A stretch of 58,462 nucleotides of DNA, filler included, from Dugesia japonica (lineage: Eukaryota): the NCBI GenBank assembly GCA_001938525.1. It is 5 parts of 5 records of this genome, joined end to end, with 100 filler letters (N's around TTAATTAATTAA, not from the genome) between each part and the next. Parts side by side here need not be neighbours in the genome. Positions count along the whole stretch, not along the records: positions 39,796 to 58,462 come from MQRL01645809.1; 4 more parts are not named here. One strand, 5' to 3'. Made by a program: the position numbers and the translations under genes. The notes beneath the pieces were generated by a model. That model had not been told where the DNA came from. It did no database searches and worked only from the letters and a program-made list of their open reading frames with translations. How positions within the stretch are numbered: the stretch's first letter is position 1; every line of letters starts with the position of its first letter. Of this stretch, positions 45,742 to 47,550 are shown piece by piece.

Positions 45742-47550
45742 GCATTAACAACTACAATACTCCTGTTATTTTTAATGATGGGCAGAAGTGAAGCCATATT
45801 GGCATATAACTGTGATGGGATGCAAGTATTTTCATTAGTGGATACAGAAGAATGTCCGGACGCAAACCCAGAAAAAATCTCGCTCCGTAATAATTCAGTT
45901 TATCATTTATATCAGGAATCCGATTATTACAAAGCCCAAGTACGTGAATAAACAGTAACAGTGAAGACATTTATATTCCATTGTGGTTACCACAGCTATA
46001 CCTCGATAATTGACCCAGGAACAGTGAGACATCCAGTACATCTAACCGGACAACAATGCGATGAAGGATTCACAACTGGTAAAATTACCATCAAACATGG
46101 AACTCAGGTTGTCGCCAAGAAAGGGCATGTAATCGATCAACCAATAGAAGCAGCAGGAAGTATATCGTCCCATAAATGTAACTGTGAATATGGTACATAC
46201 ACTATACGAGGAAAGGTATGGCAAAATGCAGTAGCAATTGAAACCTACACAATAGAACTCAAAGAATACGAAGCATTTTTTGATGCCCAGGATTTAACTA
46301 TGAAAGGAAAATCATACTGTAAAGCAGCGGATGGATCATGTAATACAGGCACGTCAACGTTGACATACAAAGTAGATCACCAGGACTGCAAGTTAGCACA
46401 TTTAAAAGAAGCAGTGTTTGACGAATACCAAGGCCAACGTGCTATAACACATGTAGATCCAAAAGAGAGTAATCTAAAAGAGAGAATAGATAATTTTAAA
46501 GAAACAATAAGATCAGGTCCAAGGTCATACGATCAACAATGGCACACCACGCCCACGGTGCTAATGTCCTCAGAAAAGGATGAGACTATCCGATTAATCA
46601 AAGGAAACTCTATGTCTAAATGCGGTCAAATAGTATATAAGACAAATTATAAAGGAATATTCGTATCGGAACATCGAATAAAAACGGCCCAAGCTGCAGT
46701 GATGACCCAAGATATCAAACTGCACTTATATGCTAATAATAAAATGGACAACTTATTCCACCGGATGCAAGATACTATTGGACGAATGTACCATGACCTC
46801 ATACAAAATGATTGCACACTAAATAAGGAAATACTGAAGACAAAATTAGCAATGGCAGGGTCAAATCCAGATAGTGTAACTCCTTTACTGCCTCTGGAAA
46901 AAGGAGAATTTGGCCGAGTGGTAGGTGAAGTAATGTACCTATACAAATGCAAGGCAATCGATGCAGAATTTTCATCCAACCCAAAAAATTGCTACAATGA
47001 AATAGAAATCATCCACAACAATGAGAAACGTTATGTACAACCAATTACTCGAATAATATCGCCGCTGGGCTATAAGCCAAATATCATAAATTGTTCTAAT
47101 GTATTTGGACCACAATACCTAATGACAGATGGTTCAAGGATAAGATTTCCACAACGAATTTCGGTAGGAGTCGAACCACGAAAAATCTCGATGTTACGAT
47201 TAAATGCAGGGATGAAATTTACTCCCATCGATATAAATAAAGGAGGAATATATAGCAGAGAAGATCTAGAGAAAGCAAGGGAATATATGTTGTTTCCAGT
47301 CCGAAGGATGCAGATTCTGTCAAATATTGTACAATTAACCAGTGGAACTAATATAGATGGCCGCGTAAATTACGATGCACTTTTGTCAGTGGACCATTTT
47401 CAGAAAGCCACTGAAAACGTCATGCGGAAAATGTGGGGAAGATTTATAATATTTGGCCAAGCAATGGCAGGATTGTTGGGAGTCATGCTGATAATTTCAG
47501 TAACACGAGTTGTGATTACCCAGTTGTTTGCCTGTTTCGACATATACTAA
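45742..47550 (+). pseudogene. env: Env: chuvirus-like (class III, gB-related) fusion glycoprotein with internal signal peptide and C-terminal TM
   Basis: In frame with the Bcl-2 domain: ALTTTILLLFLMMGRSEA/ILAYNCDG..FSLVDTEEC, one TAA at 45949, then FHCGYHS, YANNK, C.LNKEIL..KLAMA..NP, GEVMYLYKC, CYNEI, GGIYS..YMLFP; TM ~47443-47538. Confidence 0.8.

What the first reader, a model, noticed from the sequence alone, without database searches (positions are those of the whole stretch)
45742..47550. Chuvirus-like fusion glycoprotein placed between gag and pol
The Cys and motif pattern (AYNC..FSL.D..EC; HCG.HS; Y.NNK; GEV.Y..KC; CYNE; GIYS..MLFP) is that of chuvirus-type glycoproteins, known as captured env in insect BEL/Pao elements. 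Env normally lies 3' of integrase in its own ORF. Here it is in frame inside the polyprotein with an internal signal peptide and a stop-transfer TM, so Pol would be made back in the cytosol and tethered to Env until cleaved, a topology like flavi/alphavirus polyproteins (inference). It would be an independent env capture in a gypsy lineage.
Basis: partly seen in the sequence, partly recalled or inferred. Interest (0 to 1): 0.9.

Follow-up and report, generated by a model that had tools for sequence, protein, structure and literature searches.

The report
Decayed Burro-like envelope-carrying retrotransposon
This is a broken copy of a giant animal retrotransposon whose virus-like fusion protein sits inside the same long polyprotein as its capsid and replication enzymes; the odd layout is real but has already been described for the Burro elements of planarian flatworms.

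Summary
45745-47600 encodes a class III fusion glycoprotein (Pfam PF24664 E 1e-77; fold matches chuvirus G and herpesvirus gB), preceded by a signal-like segment and followed by a transmembrane segment, between gag and a Ty3/gypsy pol. This copy is broken by stops and frame changes, but natural relatives carry env and pol in one open frame (12 of 23 proteins scanned, plus two more); two run from the gag knuckle to integrase. The layout is not new: Arkhipova and Yushenova 2019 describe gag-BCL2-env-PR-dUTPase-RT-RH-IN plus BIR in planarian Burro/GYPSM1 and call it the first in-frame env between gag and pol; Chary and Hayashi 2026 list GAG-ENV-POL gB-type elements in three phyla. The window also has the Bcl-2-fold domain, a dUTPase-like domain and a BIR-RING gene, so it is Burro-like; it lacks Burro1's MATH, ubiquitin-like and ankyrin domains. 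'Independent capture' is not shown. What I did not find in print is the topology: paired signal/stop-transfer segments, a Bcl-2 domain anchored by the env signal, and extra FN3-like membrane proteins in the polyprotein. That part is inference.

The parts
40953..41946 (+). candidate 5' LTR (TGTTG...CAACA termini)
   Evidence: terminal inverted 5-mers and adjacent PBS; multi-copy depth rises from here while 40700-40997 lies on a low-depth contig; no second copy in the window, so boundaries are inferred
41954..41971 (+). primer-binding-site-like 18-mer starting TGG
   Evidence: seen in sequence; likeness to a tRNA-Pro 3' end is recalled, not tested
42240..43430 (+). purine-rich 5' leader with tandem repeats (25-nt, 135-142-nt and 39-nt units)
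   Evidence: repeat families D5, D7, D17
43606..45055 (+). gag: capsid-like core and two CCHC knuckles, broken by stops and a frame change
   Evidence: Retrotrans_gag E 0.008 (below cut-off), zf-CCHC E 1e-4; tblastn from gag regions of P0011, P0019, P0029
45220..45636 (+). Bcl-2-fold domain directly N-terminal to the env signal segment
   Evidence: Pfam Bcl-2 E 0.002; model pLDDT 73; the 36 best VIA-align rows are all Bcl-2-fold proteins, best Bfl-1 Z 12.2, rmsd 3.2, 133 aligned, next unrelated row Z 4.8; Foldseek best E 4.5e-3
45745..45795 (+). internal signal-peptide-like segment with a (-3,-1) small-residue site
   Evidence: hydropathy and site scan
45796..47445 (+). class III fusogen ectodomain (chuvirus G / HSV gB type), 14 cysteines, one internal stop at 45949
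47446..47630 (+). env transmembrane segment (47446-47502) and conserved weakly apolar W..G..P helix (about 47569-47630); stop at 47548
48259..49077 (+). two aspartic protease-like domains in tandem (DTG motifs near 48300 and 48922)
   Evidence: Pfam gag-asp_proteas E 3e-5 for the first; second seen as a DTGA motif only, no Pfam hit; 2 to 6 protease copies in relatives
49107..49526 (+). dUTPase-like domain between protease and RT
   Evidence: Pfam dUTPase E 5e-4, just under cut-off
49587..52506 (+). RT, RNase H, integrase (H2C2 and core) in Ty3/gypsy order, with stops and a frame change
   Evidence: best PDB sequence match Ty3-G Gag-Pol E 7e-55
52999..54781 (+). decayed post-integrase membrane-protein region: three hydrophobic segments (53185, 53308, 53404), Thr-rich stalk, transmembrane segment at 54572, basic and proline-rich tail
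   Evidence: same kind of layout after integrase in P0004, P0008, P0017, P0153, P0155, but no sequence match between them and the window
55682..56884 (+). IAP-like accessory gene (BIR and RING), one stop at 56678
   Evidence: BIR E 4e-16, RING E 1e-12, PDB hits to NAIP, cIAP1, XIAP; assignment to the element rests on base skew and multi-copy coverage
56961..57728 (+). 255-codon coiled-coil-like accessory ORF
   Evidence: no Pfam hit

Best explanation
The region is the env gene of a decayed copy of a Burro-like Ty3/gypsy element (a GAG-ENV-POL, HSV/gB-type errantivirus). In working members one long frame encodes gag, optional host-derived domains (here a Bcl-2 fold), env, one or more proteases, a dUTPase-like domain, RT, RNase H, integrase and often a further type I membrane protein (shown for relatives). 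Most likely mechanism (inferred): the ribosome makes Gag and the Bcl-2 domain in the cytosol; the internal signal sends the env ectodomain into the ER lumen and is cut by signal peptidase, leaving Gag-Bcl-2 held on the cytosolic face by the signal helix; the env transmembrane segment stops transfer, so Pol is made in the cytosol as Env's tail; the element's own proteases then release the enzymes. Gag, Env and Pol are thus made in equal numbers on one membrane, which would replace Gag-Pol fusion as the way to bring Pol into a budding particle. Bcl-2 and IAP-like products would keep the producing cell alive (inferred from family function). This copy itself is dead.
For: Env identity. One-frame polyproteins: of 23 proteins scanned from the 150 listed by phmmer, 12 hold env and a downstream protease in one ORF, 5 of them also RT and RNase H, and 4 have a Pfam gag marker upstream of env; P0153 (4844 aa) and the open frame of at least 3426 codons in locus L001 add two more; P0008 and P0019 run from a CCHC knuckle through env to integrase. 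Bcl-2-like domain before env in 5 of 15 relatives (leave-one-out profile finds each left-out member, E 1.5e-5 to 7e-16) and in L001. A hydrophobic core precedes env in 16 of 16 proteins and a (-3,-1) site in 13 of 16 against a background of 25%. With one fixed hydropathy threshold, 6 of 13 polyproteins put env on the luminal side and every PR, RT and IN motif on the cytosolic side. Literature: same domain order in Burro (PMC6431247 section 7); S. mediterranea errantivirus env rows share the window's motifs (PMC13524379 supplement 2; by hand 26 of 53 positions identical to Smed_errantivirus_5 over the first ungapped stretch). High-copy family in the host species: 22,164 and 28,571 contigs laid, depth in 30 of 30 bins.
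Against: The window does not show a continuous frame. The parity test failed for 7 of 13 at the fixed threshold: by my reading three had Thr/Met-rich signals and one a transmembrane segment under the threshold, two lack their N-terminus, and one had a spurious segment, but these are after-the-fact explanations. A second apolar stretch follows the env anchor in 14 of 14 proteins measured (mean hydropathy 0.9-1.7 against 1.8-2.5 for the first); if it spans the membrane the topology changes. No signal-peptide or topology predictor was available. Whole-model TM-scores to gB and chuvirus G are low (0.2-0.4) because the model includes extra domains and arranges them poorly. No cleavage, particle or anti-apoptotic activity was tested.
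Confidence: 0.8

Rival explanations
1. Env is a separate ORF (or a subgenomic, spliced product) that merely lies between gag and pol, and the long ORFs in relatives are incidental.
For: The window has stops at 45637 and 48103 and frame changes on both sides of the Bcl-2-env block; P0006 ends shortly after the anchor and P0015 just after it; Chary and Hayashi speak of ORFs 'arranged as GAG-ENV-POL' and allowed gaps up to 2 kb.
Against: 14 natural proteins read from env into protease without a stop, 6 from a gag marker into env; Burro is described as one 4,873-5,140 aa ORF.
Confidence: 0.08
2. A chuvirus-like endogenous viral glycoprotein gene, or a second element, inserted by chance into a gypsy element in this genome.
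For: Chuviral glycoprotein EVEs are common in arthropods (search listing only); best fold matches are chuvirus G.
Against: The closest sequence relatives (31-45% identity) are polyprotein-embedded and form one clade apart from stand-alone PF24664 proteins (SH support 0.97); a YQES motif is in 10 of 17 clade members and 0 of 96 others; the same order recurs in elements whose Pol is only 34-44% identical to the window's.
Confidence: 0.02
3. The polyprotein is real but Env does not make infectious particles: it serves as a membrane scaffold or drives cell-cell fusion, and the element moves inside cells.
For: No particle or infection data in the papers read; BURRO1 passages report only RNA up-regulation after PIWI loss (PMC8532177). 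Env tethered to Pol is unlike other errantiviruses.
Against: The ectodomain keeps its cysteines, length and class III fold across members 25-45% identical, which implies selection on the folded fusogen; this does not separate virus-cell from cell-cell fusion.
Confidence: 0.25

Closest known systems
Burro / GYPSM1 giant gypsy elements of dugesiid planarians (Jurka 2007 and Grohme et al. 2018, not held, known through PMC6431247; Arkhipova and Yushenova 2019, section 7 read)
   Same: Gag with CCHC knuckles, BCL2-like domain, env in frame between BCL2 and protease, dUTPase-like domain between PR and RT, PR-RT-RH-IN, BIR domain, accessory ORFs, high copy number, decayed copies.
   Different: No MATH, ubiquitin-like, midasin-like or ankyrin domain found in the window (only about 120 nt between knuckles and Bcl-2 domain); gag-to-integrase span about 2,970 codons against 4,873-5,140 aa; two proteases in tandem; host not identified; no Burro sequence was available for direct comparison.
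GAG-ENV-POL errantiviruses with HSV/gB-type ENV (Chary and Hayashi 2026, PMC13524379; sections 5 part 1, 6, 14, 22 and supplement rows read), above all Smed_errantivirus_1-6, configuration C1a
   Same: Ty3/gypsy Pol, gB-type class III Env flanked by a signal or transmembrane segment and an anchor, GAG-ENV-POL order; env motifs shared with the six S. mediterranea rows.
   Different: This copy is not intact; the paper has no mention of Bcl-2, apoptosis or dUTPase (0 occurrences) and the passages read do not discuss a single polyprotein or its processing.
Anakin, BEL/Pao elements with chuvirus-derived glycoprotein (Dezordi et al. 2020; search listing and citations only)
   Same: Same Pfam family of glycoprotein (PF24664).
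   Different: BEL/Pao rather than gypsy Pol; env after integrase; the one BEL/Pao-type hit here (P0036, DUF5641 then env) falls outside the window's env clade.
Flavivirus and alphavirus polyproteins; foamy virus Env leader peptide (recalled, not tested)
   Same: Internal signal and stop-transfer segments processed by signal peptidase; a cytosolic domain left anchored by a cleaved signal helix.
   Different: No homology; an analogy of topology only.

Membership tests
Ty3/gypsy (Metaviridae) | Pol order PR-RT-RH-IN with gypsy-type RT/RH | tested here: met
   Pfam order; best PDB match Ty3-G Gag-Pol E 7e-55
Ty3/gypsy (Metaviridae) | two LTRs and PBS | tested here: inconclusive
   candidate 5' LTR and PBS; no 3' LTR within the window, which ends at 58462
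GAG-ENV-POL HSV/gB-type errantiviruses | class III (gB-like) Env | tested here: met
GAG-ENV-POL HSV/gB-type errantiviruses | order gag, env, pol | tested here: met
GAG-ENV-POL HSV/gB-type errantiviruses | ectodomain flanked by signal (or TM) and TM | tested here: met
   hydropathy only; no dedicated predictor available
GAG-ENV-POL HSV/gB-type errantiviruses | C1a cysteine-bridge configuration of the flatworm members | not tested
   figure defining the bridges not held; motifs match the Smed rows by eye
Burro/GYPSM1 | env in frame between gag and pol in one polyprotein | tested here: met
   met in relatives; only net in frame in this broken copy
Burro/GYPSM1 | BCL2-like domain just before env | tested here: met
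Burro/GYPSM1 | dUTPase-like domain between PR and RT | tested here: met
   Pfam E 5e-4, 20.2 bits against cut-off 22
Burro/GYPSM1 | BIR domain | tested here: met
   linkage to the element inferred
Burro/GYPSM1 | MATH, ubiquitin-like, ankyrin domains | tested here: not met
   no such Pfam hit in 18 + 9 window ORFs; ankyrin occurs in relative P0153. Hence filed as Burro-like, not as Burro1-4
Burro/GYPSM1 | giant size (internal region up to 25 kb) | tested here: inconclusive
   at least 17.5 kb from candidate LTR to the window end, 3' end not seen
Burro/GYPSM1 | dugesiid planarian host; sequence identity to Burro1-4 | not testable with these tools
   no genome held; organism names coded; no Burro sequence available
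BEL/Pao Anakin | BEL/Pao Pol with env after integrase | tested here: not met

The most novel reading that the evidence does not exclude
Burro-like elements are retroelements with a flavivirus-style multi-pass polyprotein: host signal peptidase frees a class III fusogen and one or two further type I membrane proteins with fibronectin-III-like ectodomains (possible attachment partners), the env signal helix doubles as the membrane anchor of a Bcl-2-fold protein, and Pol is packaged as the cytoplasmic tail of Env rather than as Gag-Pol. With the IAP gene they would be enveloped, apoptosis-blocking retroviruses of invertebrates. Support: paired hydrophobic segments in P0004, P0008, P0017, P0153, P0155; FN3 look-alikes at scores 0.88-0.92 with low recognition, a lead only. 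Not found in my searches.
Probability: 0.35. Interest if true: 0.65.

Novelty: new member of a known kind. Interest (0 to 1): 0.3.

Why it matters
The headline claim, env in frame between gag and pol of a gypsy element, was published in 2019, so this copy adds one more decayed member. What is still open and testable is how such a polyprotein is threaded through the ER membrane and cut, how Pol gets into particles, and whether the Bcl-2 and IAP products protect the host cell. The search also shows that the family is broad and modular (at least 17 distinct relatives at 25-45% env identity, polyproteins up to 4,844 aa, varying accessory domains), and that its proteins sit unnamed or mis-assigned in metagenome collections.

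Tried and rejected
Word-indexed search for longer env relatives found none among 7,597 candidates although HMMER later found them. Locus scans: viral contigs 0 relatives twice; genome contigs 0 for P0008; metagenome contigs 2 loci, L001 close and L002 a distant stand-alone env. Sequence search of the Bcl-2-like ORF against the PDB found no Bcl-2 protein; only the fold search did. No RNA holder listed; two RNA runs of the same species label gave 235 and 14 reads, 93-100% of them running on into unlike sequence, which says nothing firm on expression of this copy. No tRNA or Rfam hit in the window. No 3' LTR or second element copy in the window. Post-integrase regions of five relatives do not match the window's by tblastn at E 1. 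The env tree (65 of 121 eligible sequences, FastTree, midpoint root) cannot give a donor or direction, so I rejected the 'independent capture' claim as untested. Earlier findings of this scan: nothing. Grohme 2018 and Sacco 2022 are not held; their figures and supplements may already describe some of the topology or accessory domains. No complex prediction was run.

Full report
What is there. The finding lies inside a long A-rich block that starts near 41 kb and runs to about 58 kb. Its plus strand reads, in order: a candidate LTR (40953-41946, TGTTG...CAACA) and a PBS-like 18-mer (41954-41971), a repeat-rich leader, gag with two CCHC knuckles, a Bcl-2-like domain, the glycoprotein, two protease-like domains, a dUTPase-like domain, RT, RNase H and integrase, then a decayed membrane-protein region, a BIR-RING gene and a coiled-coil ORF. 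Pol is Ty3/gypsy. The copy is dead: 16 stops were counted in the main frame in the stretches examined, with several frame changes. No 3' LTR lies in the window. No genome is held. Flanking host DNA is AT-rich (20-30% GC) and carries exons of a Rab-domain gene, an adhesion-GPCR-like gene and a mariner transposase by eye, so the host is an animal; it is not identified.

The glycoprotein. Pfam PF24664 scores E 1e-77. A model built from the window's protein, read with X at three stops and aligned with 15 relatives, matches chuvirus G in BFVD at E 6e-37 and herpesvirus gB in the PDB at E 9e-15. It is a class III fusogen.

Is it inside the polyprotein? The window cannot show this, but relatives do. 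phmmer over 1.84 billion representatives gave 932 hits and listed 150; 11 of the best 17 are longer than 1,100 aa. I scanned 23 of the 150 with Pfam: 12 hold env and a protease in one ORF, 5 of these also RT and RNase H; 4 have a gag marker upstream of env, and a knuckle pattern adds P0008 and P0011. P0008 and P0019 run from knuckle to integrase. P0153 is 4,844 aa with env, six protease stretches, ankyrin repeats and Pol. Locus L001 has an open frame of at least 3,426 codons: Bcl-2-like domain, env, two proteases, a small membrane protein, protease, RT, RH, IN and another membrane protein, followed by exonuclease-like and coiled-coil ORFs. Against this, five long relatives start without a gag marker and two end at or soon after the env anchor; their DNA could not be fetched, so contig edges and true ORF borders cannot be told apart.

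The Bcl-2 domain. 45220-45636 folds like Bcl-2 proteins: the 36 best rows of a search over 48,161 chains are all Bcl-2-fold proteins, best Z 12.2 with rmsd 3.2 over 133 residues, and the first unrelated row is at Z 4.8. Z 12 is under the tool's caution level for helical bundles, but Pfam (E 0.002), Foldseek and the conserved GGW motif agree. The same domain stands 52-82 residues before the env start in 5 of 15 relatives and in L001.

Topology. A hydrophobic core precedes env in 16 of 16 proteins, and 13 of 16 have a signal-peptidase-type site just before the mature start, against 25% by chance. One strong transmembrane segment closes the ectodomain. In P0004, P0008 and P0017 a second pair of hydrophobic segments follows integrase; counting membrane passes puts env and the FN3-like motifs in the lumen and all Pol motifs in the cytosol in 6 of 13 polyproteins at a fixed threshold, and fails in 7. 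A weaker apolar helix after the env anchor is conserved and could be a second pass. The window's post-integrase region has four hydrophobic segments. The extra ectodomains of L001 resemble fibronectin III domains by language-model features (0.92 and 0.89, low recognition, a lead only). The mechanism in the best explanation follows from this anatomy and from general knowledge of ER translocation; no step of it was tested.

Copy number and expression. Contigs of two DNA runs of the host species cover all 30 bins of 40700-58462 (22,164 and 28,571 laid, mostly 90-95% alike), with much lower depth over 54.3-57.9 kb than over gag-pol, so the family is high-copy and old, and fewer or more divergent copies carry the downstream genes; no piece spans the element. 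Two RNA runs gave 235 and 14 partly fitting reads.

What is known. [quoted passage not shown] The six S. mediterranea env rows share the window's motifs; by hand 26 of 53 positions match Smed_errantivirus_5. A YQES motif is in 4 of those 6 rows, in 10 of 17 members of the window's clade and in 0 of 96 other hits. PMC8532177 (passages) shows BURRO1 RNA rising after PIWI loss. Grohme 2018, Jurka 2007 and Sacco 2022 were not seen.

Verdict. I file it as a Burro-like GAG-ENV-POL errantivirus, not as Burro1-4, because MATH, ubiquitin-like and ankyrin domains were not found and neither host nor direct identity could be tested. Independent capture is not shown: the env clade is distinct (support 0.97) but the tree is unrooted. 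Interest 0.3, kept above the floor because the membrane topology, the anchoring of the Bcl-2 domain and the extra membrane proteins were not found in the papers searched and are testable.

Noticed in passing
window 45220-45636: Bcl-2-fold domain fused in front of the env signal; the signal helix could act as its tail anchor.
   Followed up: yes
window 55682-56884: IAP-like gene (BIR plus RING) downstream of pol on the same strand, multi-copy in the host species.
   Followed up: partly
window 52999-54781; L001 4793-5236 and 9104-9961; P0004, P0008, P0017, P0153: Additional signal-ectodomain-anchor units inside or at the end of the polyprotein, some with FN3-like motifs; not mentioned in the papers read.
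   Followed up: partly
P0153, P0009, P0005, L001: Aspartic protease domain repeated 2 to 6 times along the polyprotein, including copies after integrase.
   Followed up: no
L001 10617-12107: Accessory ORF with a DEDD-type exonuclease domain (Pfam RNase_T E 1e-5) after the polyprotein; by eye P0017 and P0015 carry a similar domain upstream of env.
   Followed up: partly
P0008 (NCBI HBK71150.1): A full gag-env-pol polyprotein is deposited as a hypothetical protein of a Flavobacteriaceae metagenome bin, most likely eukaryotic contamination of the bin.
   Followed up: no
window 10014-10091 (minus): 78-bp fragment 85% like the 3' part of the candidate LTR, next to an assembly gap.
   Followed up: no
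window 56961-57728: 255-codon coiled-coil-like ORF without Pfam hit; L001 has a short coiled-coil ORF at a similar place.
   Followed up: no
window 34786-35427 (minus): Mariner-type transposase fragment, recognised by eye.
   Followed up: no
window 17197-18772: Exons of a Rab-domain (RASEF-like, by eye) gene occur twice, 882 bp apart and 99% identical across an N gap; probably an assembly duplication.
   Followed up: no
window 10306-10405, 19035-19134, 29197-29296, 39696-39795: Identical 100-bp spacers (N run, TTAATTAATTAA, N run) about every 10 kb: scaffolding linkers, not biology.
   Followed up: no
window 32756-33313 (minus): Exons of an adhesion-GPCR-like gene (GPS-type motif, by eye).
   Followed up: no
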